Source of the DNA: Diplonema japonicum
Taxonomy: Eukaryota > Protista > Euglenozoa: Diplonemea
Direction of reading: 5' to 3'
Assembly: GCA_964019335.1 (NCBI GenBank)
Contig: OZ025676.1
Coordinates: 559,746 to 623,745 of the forward strand
DNA length: 64,000 nt
Under the pieces are notes generated by a model, which was given only the letters and a program-made list of their open reading frames with translations, had not been told where the DNA came from and did not search any database. Positions 268-64,000 of this stretch are shown here, one piece after another. The translations under genes were made by a program, and so were the position numbers. Every line of letters starts with the position of its first letter. The stretch's first letter is position 1.

Positions 268-1236
<969 letters not shown>

Positions 1237-2557: not shown

Positions 2558-2660
2558 TTTGCTGTGTGTCCCTTTTTTTTCCTTTCACTTTTTTTTTAAA
2601 TTTTCTTTTGTTCGTTTCTACGTTTGAACAGAATGATCCCATCTATCCCCTCCCGATTAA

Positions 2661-2736
2661 TCAGTAGACCATCGTGAACGTTACTGCTTCCTAAGTCATG
2701 GTCGGTCAGAGAGCTGGGTTAGTATTGCGTCATCAT
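2661..2736 (-). ncRNA. Box C/D snoRNA type A, copy 1
   Basis: Minus strand ATGATGA...CTGA(D')...CTGA(D); guides antisense to LSU GAGCUGGGUU and AGACCGUCGUGA; flanking stem 2639-2650/2745-2756. Confidence 0.92.
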
Positions 2737-2784
2737 CGAACGTTGGGGATGGATGGCAAAATATATAAAAAAAATTGTTTGATT

Positions 2785-2916
2785 TCAGTATTTAATATGC
2801 GGTGTTGATCTTTTGTATTGCGGTATCAGGAGGGGAAAGGAAAGGAAGAGGGGGCAAACCCTCTACCTCTCTTTCGTCCATCAAATTGACGTGCAAATAA
2901 GAAGATACGTCATCAT
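2785..2916 (-). ncRNA. Box C/D snoRNA type B (132 nt), copy 1
   Basis: ATGATGA...CTGA; guide ATTTGCACGTCA antisense to conserved LSU UGACGUGCAAAU; internal purine/pyrimidine hairpin. Confidence 0.88.
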
Positions 2917-2976
2917 GTCAAAGGCGGGCTTCCAGCCATGCTTCAAAATGTGATTTTGCCTTTGGGGACATTGTGA

Positions 2977-3056
2977 TCAGTAGACCATCGTGAAGTATTA
3001 CTGTTGTCCTAAGTCATGGTCGGTCAGAGTGAGCTGGATAAGTATCTTGTCATCAC
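2977..3056 (-). ncRNA. Box C/D snoRNA type A', variant with shifted D' guide
   Basis: GTGATGA...CCAGCTCACT-CTGA...TCACGATGGTCTA-CTGA; paralogue of type A. Confidence 0.9.
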
Positions 3057-3116
3057 TTCCTCATCCTCAAGAGGTCGTTAGTTGAAAAAAAAAACAAAGA
3101 AATTGTTCCTGACGTT

Positions 3117-3248
3117 TCAGTATTTAATATGCGGTGTTGATCTTTTGTATTGCGGTATCAGGAGGGGAAAGGAAAGGAAGAGGGGGCAAACCCTCTACCT
3201 CTCTTTCGTCCATCAAATTGACGTGCAAATAAGAAGATACGTCATCAT
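3117..3248 (-). ncRNA. Box C/D snoRNA type B, copy 2
   Basis: Identical to 2785-2916 between boxes C and D; flanks differ. Confidence 0.88.
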
Positions 3249-3307
3249 CTTTTTTAAAAAGGTTTATTATTATTTTTTTTTAATTTATTTTTCGGCCCTT
3301 TGTGTGA

Positions 3308-3383
3308 TCAGAAGACCATCGTGAACGTTACTGCTTCCTAAGTCATGGTCGGTCAGAGAGCTGGGTTAGTATTGCGTCATCAT
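3308..3383 (-). ncRNA. Box C/D snoRNA type A, copy 2
   Basis: Near-identical to 2661-2736. Confidence 0.92.
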
Positions 3384-3455
3384 GCACGAGGAGGACAGGG
3401 TGTGGGCAAGAAACTTTTCAAAAAAAAAATTGCAATTCTGGCAAAAGGTTTGTTT

Positions 3456-3587
3456 TCAGTATTTAATATGCGGTGTTGATCTTTTGTATTGCGGTATCAG
3501 GAGGGGAAAGGAAAGGAAGAGGGGGCAAACCCTCTACCTCTCTTTCGTCCATCAAATTGACGTGCAAATAAGAAGATACGTCATCAT
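3456..3587 (-). ncRNA. Box C/D snoRNA type B, copy 3
   Basis: Identical to 2785-2916. Confidence 0.88.
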
Positions 3588-3652
3588 GTCAAAGGAGTCC
3601 TGCGTGCTGCAGTGGGGTTGTGCTGGGCCTCTTGGCTCCCCTCCCATTGTGA

Positions 3653-3728
3653 TCAGAAGACCATCGTGAACGTTACTGCTTCCTAAGTCATGGTCGGTCA
3701 GAGAGCTGGGTTAGTATTGCGTCATCAT
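3653..3728 (-). ncRNA. Box C/D snoRNA type A, copy 3
   Basis: Identical to 3308-3383. Confidence 0.92.
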
Positions 3729-3830
3729 GCACAAGGAGGACAGGTAGTTTTTTTTTCTTCTTTTCTTTCCCTTCCCCCAGTTCTTGAAAGAACAAAAAAA
3801 TAAAGAATAACGGGAGGCATGGCAACTGAT

Positions 3831-4563: not shown

Positions 4564-6201
4564 TTGTACTTTGCTGTTGTATAATTTGGTTTTCAAGTAT
4601 ATTTTCATCTTGATTAAAAATGTGTGTTAACACTTGGGAGCTTCTCGTGTTGTTGTGGATCGGTACCTCCTGACCACTCTGCCGCGTGGGGAAGTCCTCG
4701 AAGCTGCACAATTTCAGCATTTGCGGAAGAGGCAATACGCCGAGGCGGTGGGTTCAATCATGAGGGTGGTGACGACCATGTGGTAGGTTGGGACAATGAC
4801 GAAGAGCAGGGCCCCCAGAACATGGAAGACGAGGGTGAGAAGGGATTCCTTGTGGAAGGGCCAGAGGAAGCGTGTGCGGTCGCCGAAGAGGCGCATGAGG
4901 ACGAACCCCACGAGGGCTGGTCCCACAACGAGGTTCAGCCCCAAGAGGCGGGGGTCGATGTGTGGTCCGTAGATGGCTCCCTCGTAGAGGGCGTGCAGGG
5001 AGGCGATCGTGTAGGCCCAGAAGAGAATGTGGTCGGGGCTCGTTGGGTAGAAGTTCAGGAGCCCCTTGTCGATCTGGAGGTACTTTGAGGAGACAGGGAC
5101 AACATCCTCCTCCTCCTCATCCTCTTTCTTCGTCTTCTTCTTGTTGTTGTTGTCCACTCCCGTGCCCCCTTCTCCCTTGTACTCCTCCGACACCCCGAGC
5201 TTCTCACGGAAGGTCCCAAATACGCAGTCCAGACAGTACTGCGGGCCTCCGTAGTTGCACTCGAACTTCGCGTGGTGCAGGTAGTGGTACTGGTCTGCCT
5301 GCCAGTGGTCCTCCCAACCCGAGTGTCCCGCTGCGGGGGCGAGGTTCAGGTGCCACCCGTTCCAGTGGAAGACAAAGGGCGACATCTTGAAGTACAGGCT
5401 CACCGCCACCGCAGAGTAGTAGTAGACGTGCTCCAAGGGGTGCATCGAGAGCCCTGCAAAGGGTTCGATGTCGATGTTCCTGTGGTGCAGGGAGTGCACG
5501 TACTTGTACAGGGCGCGGTAGTGGATCGTGCGGTGCGCGAAGTAGAAGTGGAAGTCCCTGTACAGGGGGATCGCTAGTACCCACATCACATTCCAAAGGA
5601 AGGTTGTGAGGGCTGTTGTGCTGTTGTCGTTGTTATAACCCATCGTCGTCCACCACGAGAACCACGCCTCCTCATCCGTGTCGTATGGGACCCTCCCCTC
5701 CGCGAGCAGGTGGTAGTACGCCATCTCCCAGGCACTCCACTGTAGAGCCCCCAGCGTCGTGTACCACACGTTCTGCACCATCGTCGCGAGGGAAGGGTAG
5801 CTGTGCGGGGCATACTTCCGCCTGCTCAGAAAGTGCGACACGAAGTGCCACCACCCGAAGTACAGGTAGATCACCAGCGTGTTCACCCCACACCGCCTCG
5901 CGAACCACGCCCCGTCCCACCGCCCCGCCGCCTCCATGTCGTACGGCGCCAGCACGTACAGCGCAGCAGACAGCAGCAGCCACATCAGGTTCGGCGTCAT
6001 CAAGATGGTCCGCACCACGTTCCAGGGCTGAAAGAACAGCTGCCCGGACATGCTCGTCTCCCCGGGGCGCTTCTTCAGGTCCACCCACCCAGCAGGGCGG
6101 AAGATGCTTCCCCCTGACAAGCCTCCGAGAGACAACAGGAACGACATGGTGGCTTTTCTTGTTCAACTGGCTGAAGAACTGACGGGGGGGGTTGCAAGGC
6201 A
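4564..6201. repeat. Dispersed duplication, copy 1 (partner 14103-15739)
   Basis: Appears identical at offset 9539 except for one G in a G-run; diverged homology extends out to 4501/13987. Confidence 0.95.
4714..6147 (-). CDS. Sterol desaturase / fatty-acid hydroxylase family protein, copy 1
   Basis: His boxes HRTIH, HSLHH, HYLHH; GLSMHPLEH and FECNYG motifs; multiple TM segments. Confidence 0.9.
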   Translation of the reverse strand: MSFLLSLGGLSGGSIFRPAGWVDLKKRPGETSMSGQLFFQPWNVVRTILMTPNLMWLLLSAALYVLAPYDMEAAGRWDGAWFARRCGVNTLVIYLYFGWWHFVSHFLSRRKYAPHSYPSLATMVQNVWYTTLGALQWSAWEMAYYHLLAEGRVPYDTDEEAWFSWWTTMGYNNDNSTTALTTFLWNVMWVLAIPLYRDFHFYFAHRTIHYRALYKYVHSLHHRNIDIEPFAGLSMHPLEHVYYYSAVAVSLYFKMSPFVFHWNGWHLNLAPAAGHSGWEDHWQADQYHYLHHAKFECNYGGPQYCLDCVFGTFREKLGVSEEYKGEGGTGVDNNNKKKTKKEDEEEEDVVPVSSKYLQIDKGLLNFYPTSPDHILFWAYTIASLHALYEGAIYGPHIDPRLLGLNLVVGPALVGFVLMRLFGDRTRFLWPFHKESLLTLVFHVLGALLFVIVPTYHMVVTTLMIEPTASAYCLFRKC

Positions 6202-9912: not shown

Positions 9913-10040
9913 TATTATTTTTTTTTGTCTTTTTAGAGAGAAAAAAAAAAGAAAAGGGTGAGGGAGAAAAAAAAAAGGGGGTGGAAAGGGTCTGCGGGGT
10001 TTGGGTAAAACAAGAAAAGATCCCAACTGGACGATGGATG

Positions 10041-10260
10041 GCTTGAGCATCATCCATTTTCGGGGCCGGTTCATTCGGCAGGTGAGTTGTTACACACTCA
10101 TTATCGGATGCCGACTTCCATGGCCACCGTCCTGCTGTCTAGATGAACCGACACCCTTTGTGGGATCTGATGAGCGACCACTCGGACACCTTAAGTCAGC
10201 TCTCGGTTCATTCGGCAGGTGAGTTGTTACACGCTCATTATCGGAGCCGACTTCCATGGC
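10041..10260 (-). pseudogene. Orphan LSU (28S) rRNA fragment, GTPase-associated-centre region, internally duplicated
   Basis: Minus strand reads TCATCTAGACAGCAGGACGGTGGCCATGGAAGTCGG...GAGTGTGTAACAACTCACCTGCCGAATGAAC...GAAAATGGATG, the conserved eukaryotic LSU sequence. Confidence 0.92.
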
Positions 10261-14102: not shown

Positions 14103-15739
14103 TTGTACTTTGCTGTTGTATAATTTGGTTTTCAAGTATATTTTCATCTTGATTAAAAATGTGTGTTAACACTTGGGAGCTTCTCGTGTTGTTGTGGATC
14201 GGTACCTCCTGACCACTCTGCCGCGTGGGGAAGTCCTCGAAGCTGCACAATTTCAGCATTTGCGGAAGAGGCAATACGCCGAGGCGGTGGGTTCAATCAT
14301 GAGGGTGGTGACGACCATGTGGTAGGTTGGGACAATGACGAAGAGCAGGGCCCCCAGAACATGGAAGACGAGGGTGAGAAGGGATTCCTTGTGGAAGGGC
14401 CAGAGGAAGCGTGTGCGGTCGCCGAAGAGGCGCATGAGGACGAACCCCACGAGGGCTGGTCCCACAACGAGGTTCAGCCCCAAGAGGCGGGGGTCGATGT
14501 GTGGTCCGTAGATGGCTCCCTCGTAGAGGGCGTGCAGGGAGGCGATCGTGTAGGCCCAGAAGAGAATGTGGTCGGGGCTCGTTGGGTAGAAGTTCAGGAG
14601 CCCCTTGTCGATCTGGAGGTACTTTGAGGAGACAGGGACAACATCCTCCTCCTCCTCATCCTCTTTCTTCGTCTTCTTCTTGTTGTTGTTGTCCACTCCC
14701 GTGCCCCCTTCTCCCTTGTACTCCTCCGACACCCCGAGCTTCTCACGGAAGGTCCCAAATACGCAGTCCAGACAGTACTGCGGGCCTCCGTAGTTGCACT
14801 CGAACTTCGCGTGGTGCAGGTAGTGGTACTGGTCTGCCTGCCAGTGGTCCTCCCAACCCGAGTGTCCCGCTGCGGGGGCGAGGTTCAGGTGCCACCCGTT
14901 CCAGTGGAAGACAAAGGGCGACATCTTGAAGTACAGGCTCACCGCCACCGCAGAGTAGTAGTAGACGTGCTCCAAGGGGTGCATCGAGAGCCCTGCAAAG
15001 GGTTCGATGTCGATGTTCCTGTGGTGCAGGGAGTGCACGTACTTGTACAGGGCGCGGTAGTGGATCGTGCGGTGCGCGAAGTAGAAGTGGAAGTCCCTGT
15101 ACAGGGGGATCGCTAGTACCCACATCACATTCCAAAGGAAGGTTGTGAGGGCTGTTGTGCTGTTGTCGTTGTTATAACCCATCGTCGTCCACCACGAGAA
15201 CCACGCCTCCTCATCCGTGTCGTATGGGACCCTCCCCTCCGCGAGCAGGTGGTAGTACGCCATCTCCCAGGCACTCCACTGTAGAGCCCCCAGCGTCGTG
15301 TACCACACGTTCTGCACCATCGTCGCGAGGGAAGGGTAGCTGTGCGGGGCATACTTCCGCCTGCTCAGAAAGTGCGACACGAAGTGCCACCACCCGAAGT
15401 ACAGGTAGATCACCAGCGTGTTCACCCCACACCGCCTCGCGAACCACGCCCCGTCCCACCGCCCCGCCGCCTCCATGTCGTACGGCGCCAGCACGTACAG
15501 CGCAGCAGACAGCAGCAGCCACATCAGGTTCGGCGTCATCAAGATGGTCCGCACCACGTTCCAGGGCTGAAAGAACAGCTGCCCGGACATGCTCGTCTCC
15601 CCGGGGCGCTTCTTCAGGTCCACCCACCCAGCAGGGCGGAAGATGCTTCCCCCTGACAAGCCTCCGAGAGACAACAGGAACGACATGGTGGCTTTTCTTG
15701 TTCAACTGGCTGAAGAACTGACGGGGGGGTTGCAAGGCA
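14103..15739. repeat. Dispersed duplication, copy 2
   Basis: Matches 4564-6201. Confidence 0.95.
14253..15686 (-). CDS. Sterol desaturase / fatty-acid hydroxylase family protein, copy 2
   Basis: Translation identical to 4714-6147. Confidence 0.9.
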   Translation of the reverse strand: MSFLLSLGGLSGGSIFRPAGWVDLKKRPGETSMSGQLFFQPWNVVRTILMTPNLMWLLLSAALYVLAPYDMEAAGRWDGAWFARRCGVNTLVIYLYFGWWHFVSHFLSRRKYAPHSYPSLATMVQNVWYTTLGALQWSAWEMAYYHLLAEGRVPYDTDEEAWFSWWTTMGYNNDNSTTALTTFLWNVMWVLAIPLYRDFHFYFAHRTIHYRALYKYVHSLHHRNIDIEPFAGLSMHPLEHVYYYSAVAVSLYFKMSPFVFHWNGWHLNLAPAAGHSGWEDHWQADQYHYLHHAKFECNYGGPQYCLDCVFGTFREKLGVSEEYKGEGGTGVDNNNKKKTKKEDEEEEDVVPVSSKYLQIDKGLLNFYPTSPDHILFWAYTIASLHALYEGAIYGPHIDPRLLGLNLVVGPALVGFVLMRLFGDRTRFLWPFHKESLLTLVFHVLGALLFVIVPTYHMVVTTLMIEPTASAYCLFRKC

Positions 15740-44622: not shown

Positions 44623-46501
44623 CTAGCCGTTCACTATGAAAGGTGCTTTCGGTGAGCGTGTAACAGTTGCCTTGCAGCTTACCAAGCCCGTATTTTCTTT
44701 GTGGAAAACATATTCCTCAACATGTGGTACTCGGTGATGTGCACAGACTGCACGTCGTACCTGTTGATGATAGTAGAGTCTAGCTGTGAGGCAATGGTGA
44801 TGTCCACAAGAGCTGCCACTGAAGGAGACGCGTATGTACCTAGTGTGGTAGAATAGTAATTAAAATGTGCACACCTGGCTTTACTCGCACTACTGGCACA
44901 CGAATACTACTCACAAATTTTCCCCATTGTACATCGCCGAGGTCTGTCGAGACGAATACTTTCTCTACGTGCTGATTCTTCACCATGGTGTTAATGGTCT
45001 CGGTCACGAGGGAAAGAGGGGGGTCACACTGCTCCGAGATGTCTGACGAGGTTTCCTGAACCCCATTCAATAGCGAGGTCATAAACATGAGGGGCTCTTC
45101 GTTTTGTGTTGTGCACTTCTCTATCCATTCTTTGGTTTTAGGCAAGCGAATGGAGAGGGATTTCTGTAAAACATGAAATGAGACAGCAGAATGCATACCA
45201 GGCTTGTTAAATTATTTTCTGCGATGAAAGTGGCTGCTTCGTTCCTGATCTTGTCAGAGGGAACGAGTTTCGACCTGGTCTTCCAGAACAGCTTGGATCC
45301 GTATTGCTCTTTCGAAGAGTACCCCAAGCACAAAAGCCTAAACGCACCTGTCTGATGCTGAACGGCACAGTCCTTGCAGAAGGATACATGCGGTGTGACA
45401 ACGAGGTCGTGCAGATATTCAATATCACCTAGTTGGTTCTGGAACATTGTTGGAAAAGCAAGCTCCGACGAGATGTTAACACCTGAAGCACACAAGGTGT
45501 ACTCATACAGCATGCGCATGAGTCGCGGTGCAGTTGACTTCTGGATTGCCGCATCGACCATGATGCCGTATGAGAGGGGGCGGTTGCCCTCGTACCCCTT
45601 CCATACAGGCTTGGACCAGGTAGTAGAATCCTCGCTGCTGCGGACTGCGCTGAAGTACTCAACATCTTCAGCAATCCCCTCGTTGACCTGATAGGGTTGT
45701 TTGTAGGTGCTCGATATCTCTGACTTGTTCGGAGGGAGAATGTCCCCCAACCTTAAGTGGAACTTTGCGGAGTTCTCCGAGGACCAGCGCATCATGAGCT
45801 CAGTAAGGTAGTCAGGTGTGACTGTGACTTGCTGTTCACCCACTCGCTGTTTGAGGCGGTTGTGTTCGTTGGCTAGTTTCCCTATGTTCGCCAACAACAA
45901 TTTTGCCTCTAAAGATGTTGTAGAACTGAGCCTCTTGGCTCTCTTTTCAAGCTTAGCATGAACCTGTTCTAGCTTTGCGATCTCCTGTTCATGTGGTACG
46001 TTCAGCTTACAGAACATAAGAACATACCGCAATGTCCTCATTGTCCTGACGCTCTCGGACAGCCCTCTCGACTTCAGCAGTCTCAAGACAGTCAGCCTGC
46101 CTGCAAAGTATGATGACATGGTGTTGCTAGCATACATCTTAACAAGGTCAGCTGTTGTCGCACGCAATTTATTGTTTTTTGTTTCAAGGTCTTGACGTCT
46201 GGAGAAAGCAGCAGCGGCAGAATCTTTCATGCTGCCTTCCAACTGTGGAAATATACAATACATTAAGACATACTATATTGTCACTCTTTATCATCTCTTC
46301 GTTACATTTGAGCAGCTCTTTCATCAACACTTCGTCCCTCACTCTGTTTTCCTGGAAACCAGTGACGTGCTTCTCACTTCCTTGTGAAGCTCCCAGCTTG
46401 TAAGCAAAGGTGAAGAGTCCAAGCACTGCTGCCACCAAGGCAAAGGTGACAAGGGTGCCATCTTTTTCGGGTTTGCGGGTTTCCTTTGAAGACATTTTCA
46501 T
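44623..46501 (-). CDS. Type II membrane glycosyltransferase-like protein (O-fucosyltransferase-like), several introns
   Basis: N-terminal TM, coiled-coil stem, C-terminal KVFVSTD and AALVDITIAS motifs. Confidence 0.55.
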
Positions 46502-54745: not shown

Positions 54746-57700
54746 TCAACGTCGTATGCAGATGCCTGGGCCTTCTCTCCCTTCCTTTGCCCGCAACTTG
54801 TCAGTTGACGGTCGCTGTAACGCGAGCGAGGGGCTGATCTTTTGTCGCATGTTTGCCTGAAGGCAGGGGAGCAGCTTCTCCGTTTCTGTTAACGGCTGGA
54901 TTAAGCAGTGGTTTAAAGATCGCACAATGTGGAATGGTGCCTTCGATGGACCTGCGATATAGTCACTTAGTGTAGAGTGCCTGTTCAAATTATTCATGTG
55001 TGGTGCAACATACATTGGCCGCTCTTGAAGCAGTCGTGCACGGAACGACTTTACAGTGTCGTTGGCGTTGACAACGGCCAGCCACGGAGTGCTATGAGGT
55101 TTAATCACTAAAACGTTCGGGTCAGGTATGTTCAAGTGCATGTTGGCGTGGTTGTGGTTGCTTTGCTCAAAGTGTAGGATCTGTACCAAAAAGCGATCCT
55201 GATCAAATGGGGGAAGTTTCATCGTAAGGTCAAAAGAGACCTGGTATGAGCTGACTGCATTCAGACCGGGAGCAAATTGGAAGGACGAGCTGCGCACATT
55301 TTGAAGAATTTGAGTCTTTACAACCTCTGCGCACAGAATAAGACTTTTCGTTGTTTCAACGAGCGGTTCATGATCATCCCAAAGCACTCGTGTTATCGTG
55401 TTGTAGACAGCTGATAGTTCATACAACAGCACTTTACCTGAATGAGGATGCTGTTTCACACTGCCGCTCGGGACTGTTCTGTCGATCGCGCAAATTGAGC
55501 TTTGAGTACTCCCTGATGAGCCGCTTGTAGTAGTATCTTGTTCACCACAGCAGTCAATTCCGGTGATGTGTTCTCTGCCAAGAATTTGCGTGTCCTCAAT
55601 GAGTTTTGTCTTCAAGTGGCCAACTTGAGCACCTGGTTGCAGAGTTAATTTCACCGATTTTTCTAACTCGCCATGAATGCTCGAAATTATATTTACGGTC
55701 ACGAAAATACTGCCCTGTGGATACAGTGTACTCAAATCCGCTTGCTTCACAAAGTACAGCGTGTTCCGCAACCGGTTCCAGCCAATATTAAGAACAGTGC
55801 CGAGGGATAGAGTACCAGCCAACAGTGCAAGTTTGGGGGTGTAGTCAGGTTCTGACACAAAGAGCTCCAACTCCATAGGGTTGACTTTCAGCTCAGCAGC
55901 AAGCAAAGCCCTTACTGCCGAAATTGACAGGTCACTGGATAACTCCAGTGTCGTAGTAGCAACGTCCGGTTGGTCGACAGCACTGAACCTAACCTGCAGG
56001 GCAAGGGCTTTTTGCTTGATGACATCCCTCACGTCACGGTATTTCGCCGTTAGCGTATTTGAATCTGGTGAAAATGGATGCATCACTAAGTTCGTTGTAC
56101 CGGATGTGATGACCACAATATCACCGCTGCTCAGTTCTGCATCATTCAAAGTGACGTCACCATCGAGTTTTTCTAAGAGACCTTCGCGGACTTCTTCGAA
56201 GAGTTGTCCTTGTTGCTGGAAATTGCAATCCGACATGCCATCTAACAAAGCCCTTAGAGGCGCATCGCGGTTCAACACGCATCGCTTCTTTACAACACAA
56301 GAGTCAGTATTCTGCGGAATGTGAATCTTTACGAAAAGCATAACGAGATCACCGTCAACAAGAGATTTCTGAGGTGTCAATGTTGCAACCCCAGAATTAT
56401 CCTCCACTGGCCAAGGGTGGGCATAGAGTGTCACGATGTCTTTGTGATGCGAGCCTAAAGAAAAGGCTTTCTCGAGCGTTGTGTCAGGATTTTGTATTAC
56501 AAGTGACGAGGGTCGCATGGTGCCATTTAACCGCCCCTCCCATCGCCAAAGAGCTATGTCCTCGAGATCAGGATAATAGGTTTGTATCAATGTGCTTTTC
56601 AGCGATCGGAGAGTTGTTTTCCTTAGGTGTTTAACAGGAATACAACTTTCTGGTGGTGCCACCTCCTCGCAACCAAAGATGTCATTGTCGACAACAACAC
56701 GCACATTGATGAACAAGTGCGCTTCTGCAACATCTTTTTCAACATCTTTTTTGGGCAATCGACCAAACCGTCTGTGAACACTCATCGGCACTGTTGCGTA
56801 AGTTATTGTTGGAGTAAGCCAGTCGAGGTCACTAACTCTTAAATAGATCAACACATAGGCGGAAGCGTACCTAGGTAGTTGTCCTCCACCATAGTCCCCG
56901 CCAAAGTTTTCTGCTATGACATCTTTTTCAGTTACACGTATAACCCTTTCATCATCAAAGCGGTACCATGGGCCACTGAGCACAGGCCTCAGGAACGAGT
57001 AGTAGTGTCCCCCGTTCACATCTCCACTATGTACCAGAACTGAAAGCAGTACATATGCGTTGTCCTTTGGTGAAGGTGTTGCCAGGTATCGTTCGATATC
57101 AAGTTCAACAGGGAACTCCTGCCTCTCGTTCACTTTTGCCTGTTTTTGTGTCACAATATCATAGTCAAATCTCTTCAGATGTAGCAGCAGCACAGGTGGT
57201 GCTTTATCCATGATACATTTTCGAGTAGCAGCTTGAAGGCCCTGGTCCGGGGTTGCATACTTGTTCTCTCCTTCTAAAACCTCGGGGGAAAAGTACTTGT
57301 CTAATGCGTCGTATAAGGTTGGGCAGCCCTTCACGTTTAGTTGGAGGTCGTAAAACAGCTCTTCGGTTCTTGATTCATAGTCGATGTCATTGCAAACAAT
57401 AGTGTGCACGAGTCCTCCTCTGAAAAGGGAATCAAGTGTACCTGCAACTCTTGTGCCCTTCAACTTCTCTTCTAACGATGAGTACAGCACCCTAATCAAC
57501 TCATGGATATCGTGCTGGCGGAAGACGCCTTCTTGAGTCCAACCAAATGCCGCTGTCAGCTCTTTGGTGGAAACGGCCTTTTTTTGAAACTGGAGGTTGT
57601 AAAAGACTTGTTGCAAAGCCCCAACCAAGCTCTTTTCTTTTTGTTCAAGCGTGGGGTATGGTGAGGGGTAGGGGCTGAAGATATTGCTATCGAGTTCCTC

Positions 57701-58357
57701 ATCCGATACTTCATCAAAGTTATCTCCAATGGGTGCATGGAATATTTGATCACGTAGAAATGGGATGTGAAACCATGTTTGAATCAGCGAATTCAAGTAG
57801 CAGGTTGCACCTTGGTTGCAAAGCCCCACAGCGCCGCTGGTTCGTGGTGTTGTATTCCCTTCGTCAGAATCATCACAGTCACTTGGTGATATTGTCATCC
57901 TGAAGTCGATCTGCAATGTGTCATCTGCAATGAATCCTTTGTCTTCGTCATAGAGAACGGAAAGTGGCATGAAGCGTCGGAAGCCCCAGTCATGAAGTGC
58001 AAGGCAGAACACATTTTCTGATTTGCAGAGTACTGATGACACAGACTTCACATTACTTAGTGCTGTGAACGAGAAGAAAGCAACTCTGCACCAACCAACA
58101 GGAAGTGCATGAGCATTTGCAAGATCAAGATAAATTGACAAATACCTAACACCATTGCCATTAGGGTATAGTAGCAGCCTCCATGGAATTCCATCCATTT
58201 CAAAAACACTTGAGTAAATGTTGTCAGGCATTGTGTTTGACTCTGATGCATGAAGTAACCCTTTTATTGTCCATTTGTAACTTGCTGAAGAACCCCCAGA
58301 CTTCACAAGTGATAAGCCTTGCTTCACACCATCAGTCAATGAATCATCTTCTCCCAT
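54746..58357 (-). CDS. Ubiquitin-specific protease, USP7/UBP15 family (MATH, catalytic, UBL domains)
   Basis: MATH WRLLLYPNG...DWGF; Cys box GLCNQGATCYLNS, QHD, His box VHSGDVNGGHYY, WYRFDD. Confidence 0.95.
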   Translation of the reverse strand: MGEDDSLTDGVKQGLSLVKSGGSSASYKWTIKGLLHASESNTMPDNIYSSVFEMDGIPWRLLLYPNGNGVRYLSIYLDLANAHALPVGWCRVAFFSFTALSNVKSVSSVLCKSENVFCLALHDWGFRRFMPLSVLYDEDKGFIADDTLQIDFRMTISPSDCDDSDEGNTTPRTSGAVGLCNQGATCYLNSLIQTWFHIPFLRDQIFHAPIGDNFDEVSDEELDSNIFSPYPSPYPTLEQKEKSLVGALQQVFYNLQFQKKAVSTKELTAAFGWTQEGVFRQHDIHELIRVLYSSLEEKLKGTRVAGTLDSLFRGGLVHTIVCNDIDYESRTEELFYDLQLNVKGCPTLYDALDKYFSPEVLEGENKYATPDQGLQAATRKCIMDKAPPVLLLHLKRFDYDIVTQKQAKVNERQEFPVELDIERYLATPSPKDNAYVLLSVLVHSGDVNGGHYYSFLRPVLSGPWYRFDDERVIRVTEKDVIAENFGGDYGGGQLPRYASAYVLIYLRVSDLDWLTPTITYATVPMSVHRRFGRLPKKDVEKDVAEAHLFINVRVVVDNDIFGCEEVAPPESCIPVKHLRKTTLRSLKSTLIQTYYPDLEDIALWRWEGRLNGTMRPSSLVIQNPDTTLEKAFSLGSHHKDIVTLYAHPWPVEDNSGVATLTPQKSLVDGDLVMLFVKIHIPQNTDSCVVKKRCVLNRDAPLRALLDGMSDCNFQQQGQLFEEVREGLLEKLDGDVTLNDAELSSGDIVVITSGTTNLVMHPFSPDSNTLTAKYRDVRDVIKQKALALQVRFSAVDQPDVATTTLELSSDLSISAVRALLAAELKVNPMELELFVSEPDYTPKLALLAGTLSLGTVLNIGWNRLRNTLYFVKQADLSTLYPQGSIFVTVNIISSIHGELEKSVKLTLQPGAQVGHLKTKLIEDTQILGREHITGIDCCGEQDTTTSGSSGSTQSSICAIDRTVPSGSVKQHPHSGKVLLYELSAVYNTITRVLWDDHEPLVETTKSLILCAEVVKTQILQNVRSSSFQFAPGLNAVSSYQVSFDLTMKLPPFDQDRFLVQILHFEQSNHNHANMHLNIPDPNVLVIKPHSTPWLAVVNANDTVKSFRARLLQERPMYVAPHMNNLNRHSTLSDYIAGPSKAPFHIVRSLNHCLIQPLTETEKLLPCLQANMRQKISPSLALQRPSTDKLRAKEGREGPGICIRR

Positions 58358-58810
58358 GCAAATAGTAGCGTGTCCTGTTAGGATTGCAAACAAATGTGAC
58401 GTGAAGACGTGTGAGTAAAATGTAAGAAGGAACTTAGTGGCAAGAGGAATATCAGAATAGCAGAAGGCTGGCTAGCCCAAAGCAAAAAGAAGGAGGAATT
58501 CCCAAGGATTTAGGGGAACAAAAGGGAGCGAAGGGAGCAAGGGGAATGAGGGGAACAAGATCCATTTCCATACTATGGTCAATTGGCTTGCATTTTTTTT
58601 TTGGTTCAAAAAAAGGGATCCTAGGTTTATTAAAAAAACCAGGCTCAGGTCAGCTGTTGTTACAAGATTTTTCCAGGGGGTGAAAAAAACCAGGTGAGCT
58701 ATAGTAAATAAAAAACATAAATACACAAGGGAGGGTGAGAAGGGTAGGTTTTAAATGAGAAGAGTGACAGAAGGAAGCCAAAGAGAGCACCACAAAGAAA
58801 AAAAAAAGAA

Positions 58811-58957
58811 AAAACTAGTTTGGCGCTCCATTTGTTTGTGTGCATGAGCGGAATTTTACCTAATAAAATAGCTCATTACACTGCCATCAACTAGTTTTTA
58901 GTCTCGACAATAATATTGTTAAAACAAAAAACTAGTTTGGCGCTCCATTTGTTTGTG
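58811..58957. repeat. 120-bp inverted repeat, left copy, plus a partial tandem second unit
   Basis: Reverse complement of 61721-61840 with 5 mismatches; unit restarts at 58927 (116-bp period). Confidence 0.9.
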
Positions 58958-59099
58958 CACACAAGCCGTCCACTTATGAACACGCCCCCCCCTCCCCACT
59001 GCATGTCCCTTAGGTCACAGATTCGTCTTAGCGAACCTTGGTCAGGAGTGGGGTGAGCCACCAGCATGCTCATGCCAAGAAAAAACATGTCACAACCTA

Positions 59100-59570
59100 G
59101 TGTACACACCCAGACACCTCGCTTTGCACCTCCTCCGTGATCTCTCGGCCCCAGCACAGCATCTCGAGCATGACCTCATCACCAGAGTAGGCCTTCCACC
59201 AAGCACCAAGGACGACAGTGCTGTCAATACCCATGCAAAGCACCACGTTCCAGAGACCCAACACCCGAAAAGCAAATTCCAGCAGTTCCAGCAGGGCAAC
59301 TACATCTCCAGTCGAGCAATGACTGCTCCTGCCAAGGCTCGTGGTATACCTCTCCACCTGATGTGTCTCCTCCCATCAAGCATCAGCATGCAGCACCACC
59401 CCATCAAGCTGGCATCTGTGAAGGCCTCGAGCCTTACTGTAGGTCGCTTGGCCTACTGCTTCCATTCATTCTGTCCCAACTCCTCGAAAGCAGCCTGCAA
59501 TGCACGTTGCACCAACGCTGGTATCATTATGAGTGTAGTCCAAAAACCCGCTCAACTGGCAGCATTGAGG
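59100..59570 (-). mobile_element. Decayed RNase H of a DIRS/VIPER/TATE-like retroelement
   Basis: FTDASLMGW (59408-59422), IARLE, then after a frameshift GIDSTVVLGAWWKAYS; in-frame stops. Confidence 0.65.
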
Positions 59571-59722
59571 TCCTTGCCTTTGCATACACCCAACATTTAC
59601 CTAAGGATGGAGTTCAACCTGAAAAGAGGGCCACAAAGTACCCTGGGCTGGGTGAAACATTGGTTTCAGCCAAAGCTTACTTACAGGAGGTGCTGTGAGT
59701 TGGGTTTTAACCTCCCTTTTTT

Positions 59723-59777
<55 letters not shown>

Positions 59778-60129
59778 ACATCTAATCTGAAAAGGCAGAA
59801 GGAGACTGCAAAGGGGGGTGGTGGGTGCACTGTGTACATGCTGCATCTTTTCTAAGCATATCTAGCTCACCTTGAAGTGCTTCGTTTTCAAGTTTTAGAT
59901 TATGATGTTCCTCCAGGGAAACCTCAACCTCAGGGTAGTGAGCATAGAGAGGGCTTTGGGAATTGGGCTGCTCAAGTTGCACTGACTGTGAGTGTGTGGA
60001 ATGGGGAACAGAAGGAATGGAAGGTGGTTCAGGGACTCCAGGAACAGGAGGGGAAGCAGTAGCCACAGAAAGAACAGTTTCTACTGCTTGGTGGCAACAA
60101 CCCCTCCAGGGCATATTGAGCAGTGTTGT

Positions 60130-60260
60130 GTTCCCTCAAGGGAATTTGAAGGAATTCAGGGGAACAGAGGGAAGGGAATGATTCCCTCAAGGGAATTTGG
60201 GGGAACAGGGGAACAAAAGGGAACAGGGGAACCAAGGGAATGGGGGAATGGAGGGAATGG
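60130..60260. repeat. Degenerate GGGAA(C/T) short-repeat block (similar block at 58495-58560)
   Basis: ttccctcaagggaatttg twice plus many gggaac/gggaat units. Confidence 0.6.
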
Positions 60261-60701
60261 CCATGAAAAAAAAAATTTTTTATCTGGGGTCACATGGCAG
60301 TGTTGTTATGGGAAAAAACCTGGGGGGTGGGGGGGTGGGGGGGCAAAAAAAAATTTTTTTTTCTAGGGACCCTCACTCATATAGCACCCTCAAAACAGAC
60401 TTTTTTGGAAATTTTTGGCCAAAAAAAAATTTTTTTTCCCAGGGGACCCCAAACTTGGGGTCACTTTGGCCATTTTTGACCCCAAAATTTTTTTTCTGGA
60501 AAAAGCCAGAAATCATGAAATTTATATTAAAAACACCTTATAAACCCATTTCTGCAAACCAAAAAGTTCAGAAAGGTGTTTAGGTGGAATACACATCTCT
60601 AAACTATATTCTGAAGTAAAAAGTAAGTAAAAATCTGAATCTCAGGGGGGTAACTCATCCTCATGACAACACTGGGAGCAGTGATGGGTGAATCCTAATT
60701 A

Positions 60702-60892
60702 GGACTAGACCAGACTGGACCGGACCAGACTGGATCCAGTGTGAATTTCAACCCAATTATGCTGGACTGACTGGACTGACCAGACTGACCCAGTGTTGGT
60801 CAGTCCCATCCCATCCCCTAAAACAGAATACGGGCCTAGATGGGACTCACATGACTCCATGGGATGGGACTCGACAGGACTCACAGGACTCT
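60702..60892. repeat. GGACT/GACCA subterminal-type short repeats
   Basis: Clusters of gactg, ggacc and gggactc in both orientations, resembling DNA-transposon subterminal repeats. Confidence 0.55.
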
Positions 60893-61336
60893 CCCCAACA
60901 CTGTCATTATTTTTGATAGTTTTGCAACTTTTTTTTTTTTTTTTTCCCTTTGGAAAAAAAAAAAAAAATGGGGAAAAAAAAAAGAGAAAAAAATCCTTGA
61001 TTTTTTTTGACATACATGATGTGTTTACCTTTTTTTTTTCCCCCCTTCTTTTTTTTCTTGTCTTCTCACATTTTTTCACACACCTAAGCCAAGCTGTTGT
61101 TTCTGCTTTCCACATCAAATGTTGTATTTGGATGTAATAGAAAAGGGGGGAAATAATAAATAATATGTATAAGAGGAGGGTGTGTATGTTTATACAACCT
61201 GTGTAAACAGATCAGTTCCTTGCTTTCAGTGCCATGCCCCTGATGTGTGCGATGTACAGCTCAACCCCTGCATCACACTGCCTGTTTGTTGCACATATTT
61301 TCATGTTATCCCCCCCCCACCTGAAAATAATATATA

Positions 61337-61526
61337 GGAGATAAATATATGAGTTAAAGGAGGCTGGTGTTGGCAGCACCCTGCACAAGAACTGTCTACT
61401 TGATTACAGGGGGTGCACTGCAGCCGAGTTGTAAAAGCTACAACCCGGCCACAGTGAGAGATATATGAGTTAAAGGACCTGCACAAGACTACTTGATTAC
61501 AGGGGGTACACCACAGCCGAGTTGTA
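61337..61526. repeat. Degenerate tandem duplication (about 115-bp period) encoding a zinc-finger-like remnant on the minus strand
   Basis: atatatgagttaaagga...ctacttgattacagggggt...cagccgagttgta twice; RLWCTPCNQV...SYISH. Confidence 0.6.
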
Positions 61527-61720
61527 GCTTCTTCTACGTTCCATGTCATGTCCTTAATGTGTGTGGTGTTCAGCTCAACCCCAGCCAGGGTGTCCTGGGT
61601 AACCAAGATTCTGCTTGTGCAGGATTGGGTCATTCCATTCCCTTCTGCCAAACTGAAAGTCGGAACTTGGCAGAATGGCAGAACCAGAACTTGGTGGAAC
61701 AGGGAATTCCTTACTTTTTT

Positions 61721-61840
61721 TTTTGTTTTAACAATATTATTGTTGAGACTAAAAACTAGTTGATGGCAGCGTAATGAGCTATTTTATTAGGTAAAATTCC
61801 ACTCATGCACACAAACAAATGGAGTGTCAAACTAGTTTTT
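61721..61840. repeat. 120-bp inverted repeat, right copy
   Basis: Reverse complement of 58811-58930. Confidence 0.9.
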
Positions 61841-62291
61841 TTTTCTCCCCCCTTTTTTTTTCCTCTTTGCATCATCAAGGTTGAAAGTGGTGACTATATC
61901 ACCACAACACTGACAGCACAATATTCCATGTCGTGTCCTTAATGTGTGCAGTGTGCAGCTCAACACCAAGGTGAGGGAGGGGGCAAGGGAGAAGAAAAGG
62001 CACCATTATGCAAGGAAAGAAGGGAGGAGGAGGGCCCACAGAGAGGAACACAAGGCCACCCTGGAACAGAAGCCAGATGACCCTACTTCACCCTGGGGCT
62101 GAAGTGGACCAAGGTGGGAACACCTGGAGCCCAACCCCTGGCACCCAGAATCCCAGCACCTGGGGCTGCAACCAGCACAAGGAGGCACCACCTTCCTGCA
62201 TGCAGCAGTGTTGTGGAAGAGGCCAGGGAGCTTGCTTGGCTAGTGGTAGGGGGCACTCTGGTGGGAAGCACTTCAGTTTGGATAGGGGCTG

Positions 62292-63743
62292 ATGTCACTC
62301 TGGGCCATGTTGGAAGTGACAGTGGGGAAAGCTGGTGCTGACCCGACCCAGAGATTCGGACTGGTAAAGCTGAGGAAGACAAGACGCGGATCAAGAGGTC
62401 ACTACCTGCCAGTGTACTTGGGCCCACCTAGAAGCTCAAGACACAGAAAAAAGAAGGAGGACGCCAAGCAAGCAGCGAAGGAACGAGCTGAGACAGAGGA
62501 TAAGCTCTTTCAGGCTGAACACCTGGACCCCTTTGTGGACTTGATGCTGTCAGGGGACACATTGCAAGGAGGTGGTGACCCTCCCCCCATGGATTTGGAT
62601 GATGAGCACACAGAGGCACAGAAGGAGGGGGAAAAAGAAGGAACAGACAAACATCAATGCTGGATGGAAGACTGCTCTTTCTGCACCAGTGGCAAGCTGT
62701 CTAGTTAAACACCTCAATGCGGTCCACCATCATTTTGTGAAACAAGAGCAGGTGAGGAACATGAAGGTGAACCTCTGTGGAACGTGTGCTGCAGCGTGCT
62801 TGTCAAACCAGATGCACTGTGCACTTCACAGGCAGTGGAATCTGTGGAACCCTGACAAACAACCCAGGGCTGGCAAGTCAGTCAATAGGACAAGATCATG
62901 AAGAGCTTCAAGCTGACAAGGAGATCAACAGAGAAGGATGGGAACTGAATGGATGAAACACTGCGAGGAGCACTATGCCCTGTTTTACAGTGAGGGTTGG
63001 GACTGGTACTTGGAAGGGATGGGCACAGTGGCAACGTGGGGAGACCACTTATGCCTGCCAGCCGCAGCACAAGCATTTGGCCACATGATACTTGTGGTTG
63101 CTGGGGGAACAACCCAGTCCTGATGATAGGGGAGTACAACTCCAACCACAAGAAGGTGGTGGTGCTGGTGTACAATGGCAACCACTATGAGTATGCAGTC
63201 AGAGAGGAGGAGTCGAACAGATGATGATGCTCCTTGATGAGTCCCAATCAGTTGCTCTACAAAAGGCAGGTAAGCAACCCTCCAAGGCCCTGGGTGAGGA
63301 CATTGGGGAGTGGGACATAATAGACCATGCGATCCCTGGATATGGGAAGGCAGGGGTGTTGGACCAGATGGGGGCAAGGAACCAGCAATTCCTGTACTGT
63401 CCAGTGGCAAACTGCACTAGGTTGAAGTGCAAAAGCATGACCCCATTCAACTCAACAAGGGTGTGGAAGTGTCACCTGGATGGGCACCTGGAGAGTGATG
63501 AGATCCCAGAGAGCATTCTGAGGAGACTGGACCTCAAGAGGTGCCTGGTGTGCAGGGGCTGTGTGTGGAAGGGTCAGGGGTGCCACGACGAGTGCAAAAA
63601 GGCAGTGTGAAGGGAAGGGGAATACACAACCCCCCCACTGGCCCCAACGAGGACTGAGTTACCCAGCCTGGAAGCCATAGCCACCATGAACATCACGACC
63701 ATGGGGTTGATCCTGACAAGCCTTCAAAGACTGTGGGGGCCAA
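62292..63743 (+). mobile_element. Decayed non-LTR (CRE/SLACS-like) retroelement 5' half: zinc finger, OTU protease, zinc finger; 3'-truncated
   Basis: CWMEDC...HLNAVH...CGTC; KDGN*, TWGDHL, YNGNHY; CPVANC...HLDGH...CLVC; ELPSLEAI; stops and frameshifts; 5' boundary uncertain. Confidence 0.6.
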
Positions 63744-64000
63744 GCAAACCCGCAAACCCGCAAACCCGCAAACCCGCAAACCCGCAAACCCGCAAACCCG
63801 CAAACCCGCAAACCCGCAAACCCGCAAACCCGCAAACCCGCAAACCCGCAAACCCGCAAACCCGCAAACCCGCAAACCCGCAAACCCGCAAACCCGCAAA
63901 CCCGCAAACCCGCAAACCCGCAAACCCGCAAACCCGCAAACCCGCAAACCCGCAAACCCGCAAACCCGCAAACCCGCAAACCCGCAAACCCGCAAACCCG
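63744..64000. repeat. Perfect octamer array (GCAAACCC)n / (GGGTTTGC)n, at least 32 units, telomere-like
   Basis: Uninterrupted 8-bp repeat running to the window end. Confidence 0.95.

What the first reader, a model, noticed from the sequence alone, without database searches (positions are those of the whole stretch)
63744..64000. Telomere-like (GGGTTTGC)n array in the wrong orientation, joined abruptly to a broken retroelement
Seen: at least 32 perfect units with no degenerate transition zone, starting mid-ORF of the element. The strand running toward the window end is C/A-rich. Known: telomerase adds the G-rich strand toward the end, studied euglenozoans use TTAGGG, and retrotransposition truncates 5' rather than 3' ends. 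Inference, alternatives: (a) a novel telomere octamer at an end-to-break fusion or mis-join; (b) a chromosome end healed with reversed strand polarity, which would imply unusual end maintenance; (c) an interstitial satellite.
Basis: partly seen in the sequence, partly recalled or inferred. Interest (0 to 1): 0.78.

Follow-up and report, generated by a model that had tools for sequence, protein, structure and literature searches.

The report
Octamer-capped insertion inside decayed diplonemid retrotransposon
A perfect 8-base repeat starts abruptly inside an old, decayed jumping gene of a marine flagellate; it is likely not a backwards chromosome end but the fresh, telomere-like end of a younger mobile element that landed there, and the same repeat interrupts related jumping genes in a second species, so it may be this group's undescribed telomere repeat.

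Summary
Confirmed: 32.1 perfect GCAAACCC units start 3 nt after the point where a decayed OTU/zinc-finger CRE/SLACS-like retroelement leaves its family sequence. The host is a diplonemid. Contigs of two runs, one study, carry the junction at roughly single-locus depth. The array keeps 32 of 32 CpG while the element lost at least 33 of 46, so it is likely young. The repeat is very abundant, and one contig joins it to a spliced leader. D. papillatum homologues run mid-ORF into the same octamer, same polarity. Unnamed chromosome-size records hold internal arrays of 12-35 units with a shared, fixed-phase flank on one side and varied DNA on the other. Best reading: an internal array that caps a younger insertion beyond base 64000, not a reversed-polarity end. 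Whether the octamer is the telomere is open (about 45%): no chromosome end or telomerase was seen. The scan noted this element family with an 8-base repeat before, on another piece of this genome (e1-10630253).

The parts
63744..64000 (+). Perfect (GCAAACCC)n array, at least 32.1 units, runs off the window; G-rich strand (GGGTTTGC)n on minus; 32 of 32 CpG intact
   Evidence: minus strand matches the G3-N1-7 four-run pattern 8 times
63741..63743 (+). Three bases (CAA) that belong neither to the element's family sequence nor in register to the array: filler or partial unit
   Evidence: family copies fit to 63740 and then continue differently (table 7)
63317..63740 (+). Zinc-finger region and pre-RT segment of a decayed CRE/SLACS-like retroelement; one in-frame stop at a decayed CpG (63608); RT and endonuclease absent from the window
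   Evidence: 35% to D. ambulator P0121 and 32% to D. papillatum P0122/P0136
62938..63191 (+). OTU-like protease domain of the same element, frameshifted
   Evidence: Pfam PF02338 E 3.4e-05, above the curated cut-off; C-terminal part matches P0122 315-343
62012..62937 (+). Likely 5' part of the same multi-copy element; left boundary approximate; no spliced-leader remnant and no octamer found in front of it
   Evidence: depth step near 62012 and family differences; no Pfam match in read-through frames
58472..62011 (.). CpG-poor cluster of high-copy repeats between the last gene and the element; 126-nt inverted repeat arms at 58806-58931 and 61719-61844; T60 run at 59717-59776
   Evidence: CpG o/e 0.21 against 0.71 in the gene region
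54746..58471 (-). USP7-like gene, first of a minus-strand gene cluster that reads away from the array (context only)

Best explanation
The array is likely the internal, variable-length head of a younger retro-insertion that lies beyond base 64000 and that interrupted or replaced the 3' part of an old, CpG-decayed CRE/SLACS-like copy. Shown: the abrupt junction, the decay of the old copy, the intact CpGs of the array, the abundance of the repeat, one array-to-spliced-leader junction, and the same mid-ORF junction type in D. papillatum. Inferred: during insertion the free 3' end of the new element's first DNA strand (for a full-length copy, the complement of the spliced leader, whose last four bases are in register with the repeat) is extended with GGGTTTGC units by telomerase or by a reiterating reverse transcriptase, and is then ligated, with a few filler bases, to the broken end in the old copy. 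This gives fixed phase on the element side, variable length and unique sequence on the target side, and C-rich strand = element sense strand, the normal polarity of telomere-associated CRE elements. That the octamer is the true telomere repeat is a separate, open claim (about 0.45).
For: Junction in contigs of X1 (depth 427; five other window-identical pieces 471-1006) and X2 (179; three others 205-298). 33 of 40 listed differences to the family are CpG decay, 13 CpG remain in those intervals, the array keeps 32 of 32. X6 record 24 (depth 137) joins 30 nt of array to a 26-mer that matches a published euglenozoan spliced-leader consensus at 24 of 26, with the leader's first 4 bases supplied by the array. 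3 of 14 members of the D. papillatum cluster (2 distinct junctions) run mid-ORF into the C-strand peptide, 0 into the G-strand peptide, 0 of 121 control proteins hold either. Of 66 proteins from the G-strand search, 16 hold runs of 12-35 units; all 16 have other sequence after the run and 14 before it. Flanks in front of the G-rich run are shared in 13 of 23 cases, flanks behind it in 2 of 26 (Fisher p 4e-4, rows not independent). In families A and B, 4 of 4 arrays start in the same phase and differ in length and in what follows. FoTeR and MoTeR have the same polarity.
Against: Nothing beyond 64000 was seen, so the incoming element is inferred. The two junction contigs hold only about 19 and 26 nt of array (under the tool's 31-letter bridging rule), differ from the window at 3 letters, and come from one study that may be the assembly's own source; X3 and X5 show no contig over 63743 and X4-X7 none over 63680-63735. 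The leader junction rests on one contig of one run. None of the 16 long G-strand runs reaches the end of its protein, as run-off frames at true telomeres would, which counts against the octamer being terminal in those records. Long internal telomere tracts are fragile and rare in Pyricularia. Euglena and kinetoplastids use TTAGGG. Intact CpG could also mean that the array is unmethylated or homogenised.
Confidence: 0.45

Rival explanations
1. The array is the 3' tail of a different LINE or SINE inserted antisense into the old copy: (GGGTTTGC)n is a simple-repeat tail lengthened by template slippage when reverse transcription starts at the target nick.
For: Same anatomy as observed: fixed phase and shared flank on one side, variable length and unique site on the other; young CpG-intact array; several flank families share one repeat. 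Simple-repeat tails of LINEs and SINEs are recalled knowledge, not from a call.
Against: The one flank whose direction is known is a 5' end (spliced leader). All 3 distinct junctions in CRE-like copies have the same orientation (only p 0.25 by chance).
Confidence: 0.2
2. MoTeR-like relic: the old copy once inserted into a pre-existing octamer array (telomeric or satellite); a later deletion removed its RT and 3' end and brought the body next to its own target array.
Against: An array as old as the element should have lost CpGs (32 of 32 intact against at least 72% lost); no octamer in front of the element; MoTeR relics keep the 3' terminus, this copy keeps the 5' part; flanks on this side are mostly unique in the ENA records.
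Confidence: 0.14
3. End-to-break fusion or telomere capture: a real (GGGTTTGC)n telomere of another chromosome arm was ligated to a break in the old copy; the shared flanks are subtelomeric repeats.
For: Perfect, CpG-intact array with filler bases; high abundance; motif identical in two species whose proteins are 74% alike; internalised telomeres are documented in Pyricularia.
Against: Such junctions recur at many sites, twice on contigs of the same length (P0143/P0151), which needs frequent fusions; no run-off frame among 16 long arrays.
Confidence: 0.1
4. True chromosome end with reversed polarity: the C-rich strand runs to the 3' end.
For: Abrupt perfect array in mid-ORF resembles healing; the array runs off the window; 2 of 16 long ENA arrays (P0141, P0142) start at the array and cannot be classed as internal.
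Against: [quoted passage not shown]
Confidence: 0.03
5. Assembly mis-join or base-calling artefact.
For: Junction contigs come from one study, differ at 3 letters and do not meet the 31-letter bridging rule.
Against: They share the window's own decayed letters at 63637, 63639 and 63708 and have single-locus depth; the same junction type exists in an independent species assembly.
Confidence: 0.04

Closest known systems
MoTeR1 (Pyricularia/Magnaporthe oryzae) and FoTeR (Fusarium oxysporum); PMC7367193 and PMC8381367 passages, PMC12857005 abstract and sections 18-19
   Same: CRE-related RT/restriction-like-endonuclease elements beside a telomere-type repeat; element sense strand = C-rich strand; internal relics with variable tracts.
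   Different: There the repeat is the known TTAGGG telomere, it follows the element's 3' terminus, and long internal tracts are rare. Here an 8-mer follows a mid-ORF break, tracts of 12-35 units are internal in related-looking records, and the element carries an OTU domain.
SLACS/CRE/CZAR of trypanosomatids; D. papillatum 'SLACS 132 kDa protein' KAJ9436461.1 and cluster
   Same: Homologous OTU-zinc finger-RT-endonuclease layout; same octamer junctions in D. papillatum.
   Different: Trypanosomatid elements insert into spliced-leader RNA genes (recalled); no such target is seen here, and no paper searched links the diplonemid element to an octamer.
Short interstitial telomeric sequences inserted at breaks by telomerase (PMC2246262, abstract and section 9)
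   Same: Telomere-type repeats at an internal break, sometimes with a few random bases; in-register overlap on the side that primed synthesis (here the leader junction, 4 nt).
   Different: Those are stand-alone TTAGGG inserts at unrelated sites; here one side is a repeated family sequence in fixed phase.
Athena Penelope-like elements and ciliate telomere-bearing elements (Athena named in PMC10088271 passages; details recalled, source paper not held)
   Same: Mobile elements that carry telomeric repeats at their ends.
   Different: Other element classes; no Penelope RT or transposase was seen here.

Membership tests
Telomere (telomerase-made terminal repeat) | Short tandem repeat with a G-rich strand | tested here: met
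   (GGGTTTGC)n, three-G runs, four-run pattern
Telomere (telomerase-made terminal repeat) | This array lies at a chromosome end with the G-rich strand running to the end | tested here: not met
   C-rich strand runs to the window end; whether 64000 is an end is unknown
Telomere (telomerase-made terminal repeat) | Same motif at most chromosome ends of the species | tested here: inconclusive
   No genome held; abundant in reads, but 0 of 16 long G-strand runs in unnamed records reach a protein end
Telomere (telomerase-made terminal repeat) | TERT and a template RNA matching the motif; Bal31 sensitivity; overhang | not testable with these tools
   needs the genome or bench work
Telomere (telomerase-made terminal repeat) | Motif conserved between related species | tested here: met
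   same octamer peptide in 3 of 14 D. papillatum cluster members; an element-borne repeat would also give this
CRE/SLACS clade non-LTR retrotransposon (host copy) | N-terminal zinc-finger region homologous to clade members | tested here: met
   E 9.5e-05 to P0122 among 1.8 billion proteins; tblastn 32% over 129 aa
CRE/SLACS clade non-LTR retrotransposon (host copy) | RT followed by zinc knuckle and restriction-like endonuclease | tested here: inconclusive
   absent from the window copy (broken before RT); RT by Pfam in relatives, knuckle and endonuclease motifs in P0136 read by eye
CRE/SLACS clade non-LTR retrotransposon (host copy) | Placement in the clade by RT phylogeny | not tested
   no RT in the window; clade label comes from the source's name and layout
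MoTeR/FoTeR-type telomere-targeted element | Sense strand co-oriented with the C-rich repeat | tested here: met
   window, 2 D. papillatum junctions, leader junction
MoTeR/FoTeR-type telomere-targeted element | Repeat directly follows the element's own 3' terminus | tested here: not met
   the array follows a mid-ORF break at 63740
MoTeR/FoTeR-type telomere-targeted element | Intact copies confined to chromosome ends | not testable with these tools
   no genome held
Telomerase-inserted interstitial telomeric sequence | Break nucleotides in register with the repeat | tested here: inconclusive
   not in register at 63740-63744, which is the side where ligation, not priming, is expected; 4 nt in register at the leader junction; the priming side of this array is unseen

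The most novel reading that the evidence does not exclude
Diplonema has replaced TTAGGG by the octamer TTTGCGGG, and its telomerase routinely caps the free DNA ends of retrotransposing, spliced-leader-headed RNAs, so that each insertion plants a fresh 50-280-base telomere tract inside a chromosome: telomere-capped retrotransposition shared by several element families and conserved across the genus.
Probability: 0.27. Interest if true: 0.8.

Novelty: new variant of a known kind. Interest (0 to 1): 0.54.

Why it matters
The telomere motif of diplonemids, one of the most abundant marine protist groups, was not found described in the papers searched (passages). This gives a concrete candidate that a glance at chromosome ends can test. 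If it holds, Euglenozoa are not uniform TTAGGG, and diplonemids tolerate many long internal telomere tracts made during retro-insertion, a link between telomerase and retrotransposon integration that can be assayed. If the octamer is not telomeric, it is still a genus-wide, element-borne repeat that marks young insertions. The CpG decay of the old copy is also sequence evidence for methylation-driven decay of transposons in a diplonemid.

Tried and rejected
No whole genome held. No RNA holder listed among 14 runs: says nothing on expression. Pattern scan of metagenome contigs: 22 loci with 3-12 units, mostly internal or degenerate simple repeats in DNA of GC 0.28-0.67, taxa not examined; not informative on telomeres. 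Viral contigs: 0 for the repeat, 0 for P0122. Word-based search with the zinc-finger frame: none of 36 candidates; the HMMER scan of representatives then found the relatives (third hit, a sushi-domain protein, dropped as chance). Atlas searches gave only scores under 0.9. No leader remnant, no TTAGGG dimer and no copy of the X4 flank in the window. An OTU-like stretch that I read by eye behind the array in P0142 is not supported by Pfam or BLAST; I draw no polarity claim from it. Back-translation test of 23 shared-side flanks against the leader: none beyond chance after allowing for 23 tries. Loose-end motifs match no fetched protein. A census of junctions on each side of the array failed: only 5 loose ends in 4 runs. 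The two mentions of telomeres counted in the search listing of PMC13598402 are not in the readable text. The Athena source paper is not held. Additional file 1 of PMC10161547 (repeat section) did not surface in the 7 supplements searched and may bear on the motif.

Full report
Observation. Bases 63744-64000 are 32.1 perfect copies of GCAAACCC; a 16-mer search gives 32 matches against 0.87 expected, 31 of them in the array. No whole genome is held, so nothing beyond base 64000 could be read.

Host and context. The best named relative of a window oxidoreductase is from Diplonema papillatum at 74% identity, so the host is another diplonemid; earlier notes on this genome say the same. 24 of 29 frames of 280 aa or more lie on the minus strand and read away from the array. 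Between the first gene (USP7-like) and the array lie 5 kb of repeats with CpG o/e 0.15-0.21 against 0.71 in the gene region.

The broken element. 62938-63740 carries an OTU domain (PF02338, E 3.4e-05) and a zinc-finger region homologous to a D. ambulator protein and to D. papillatum 'SLACS 132 kDa' proteins, whose complete forms go on to RT and, read by eye, a zinc knuckle and restriction-like endonuclease. Family copies in runs X1, X2 and X5 fit the window to 63740 and then continue differently; three bases belong to neither side. Of 98 differences to the family, 40 were listed; 33 of these are TpG/CpA for CpG, and 13 CpG remain in the same intervals. The array keeps 32 of 32 CpG. It is therefore likely much younger than the element, or shielded.

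Is the junction real? One contig each in X1 (depth 427) and X2 (179) covers it, close to other window-identical pieces (471-1006 and 205-298), and shares the window's decayed letters at three diagnostic sites. Limits: about 19 and 26 nt of array only, 3 other letters, one study that may be the assembly's source; X3 and X5 show no contig there and X4-X7 none over 63680-63735.

The repeat elsewhere in the organism. Five loose ends were listed. One (X6, depth 137) follows the C-rich strand with a 26-mer that matches consensus 'Euglenozoa 14' of spliced leaders at 24 of 26, the leader's first four bases being the array's last four (PMC3795323 passages). So at least one leader-headed sequence sits directly behind an array, in the same polarity as the old element.

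A second species. In the 14-member D. papillatum cluster, 3 proteins (2 distinct junctions, one after the RT, one before it) leave the element frame and run into the peptide that the C-rich strand encodes; none holds the G-strand peptide, nor does any of 121 control proteins. One array is about 6 units and internal, the other about 24 units.

Anatomy of other arrays. A search with the G-strand peptide gave 64 proteins; with 2 cluster members, 66 were analysed. 28 hold 6 or more units and 16 hold 12-35 units; 15 of these 16 are unnamed ENA records, most on contigs of 0.19-1.5 Mb. All 16 have other sequence after the run and 14 before it. Flanks before the G-rich run are shared in 13 of 23 cases (four families), flanks after it in 2 of 26 (p 4e-4, not independent rows). 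In the two four-member families the array starts in one phase, varies from 7 to 27 units, and is followed by four different sequences. Read on the C-rich strand this is unique site, array, conserved family sequence: the window shows the first two. The taxon of these records is unknown, the window's own locus is not among them, and no run reaches a protein end, which counts against a terminal position in those records.

Mechanism. Most likely the array is the head of a younger insertion beyond the window edge. The free 3' end of its first DNA strand would be extended with G-rich octamers by telomerase or a reiterating RT and then ligated into the old copy with three filler bases (inferred; 0.45). 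Rivals: a slippage-made 3' tail of an antisense LINE/SINE (0.20), a MoTeR-like target array reached by deletion (0.14), fusion with a real telomere (0.10), mis-join (0.04), reversed-polarity end (0.03). All but the last two make the array internal.

Comparison. FoTeR 3' ends are followed by 3-8 TAACCC units, and MoTeRs lie 5' end outward, leave internal relics and make fragile internal tracts: same polarity, but there the repeat follows the element's own 3' end. Telomerase-made interstitial repeats show in-register ends. A list of known telomeric retroelements names no euglenozoan case in the passages read. Euglena telomerase makes TTAGGG; kinetoplastid TTAGGG is from search listings. No paper in searches or 79 gave this motif or a diplonemid telomere motif; passages of PMC10161547, PMC13598402 (part 1 of 4 plus term search), PMC11633173, PMC7052976, PMC8061765 and PMC7859406 did not either; unseen supplements and referee text may.

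Verdict. Real feature, new variant of a known kind, interest 0.54. The dramatic reading (reversed end) is unlikely; a genus-wide octamer tied to young retro-insertions is well supported in outline; its identity as the telomere repeat is open and easy to test.

Noticed in passing
window 58472-63743: Strong CpG loss confined to the transposon cluster (o/e 0.15-0.21 against 0.71), with TpG/CpA in place of family CpG: suggests 5mC-driven decay of transposons in a diplonemid.
   Followed up: partly
window 10030-10193 (minus): 164-nt fragment of 28S rRNA (Rfam RF02543), like the scattered 28S pieces described for D. papillatum.
   Followed up: no
window 4564-6190 and 14103-15729: Exact 1627-nt duplication that holds most of a fatty-acid hydroxylase family gene, 9539 nt apart.
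   Followed up: no
window 2656-3744: About three units of 332-345 nt with a conserved core of about 97 nt, non-coding; possibly a small-RNA cluster, no Rfam match.
   Followed up: no
window 58806-58931 and 61719-61844: 126-nt inverted repeat arms, 95% complementary, in a very high-depth region: MITE-like copies or a TIR-bounded unit.
   Followed up: no
window 46468-46482 (minus): Single 15-nt dimer of the octamer inside the gene region.
   Followed up: no
window 275-1185 (minus): Polyubiquitin gene, four units.
   Followed up: no
P0132, P0136: D. papillatum gene models of the element continue past the endonuclease region to a UCH-family protease domain, a second deubiquitinase-type domain beside OTU; may be a fused model.
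   Followed up: no
P0150, P0156, P0192, P0199: Complex minisatellite with degenerate octamers behind perfect arrays of two different flank families in unnamed records.
   Followed up: no
L001, L003-L006, L016, L018: The same octamer forms 5-12-unit simple repeats in unrelated metagenome contigs; L003, L004 and L006 are three copies with identical flanks on one 567-kb contig.
   Followed up: no
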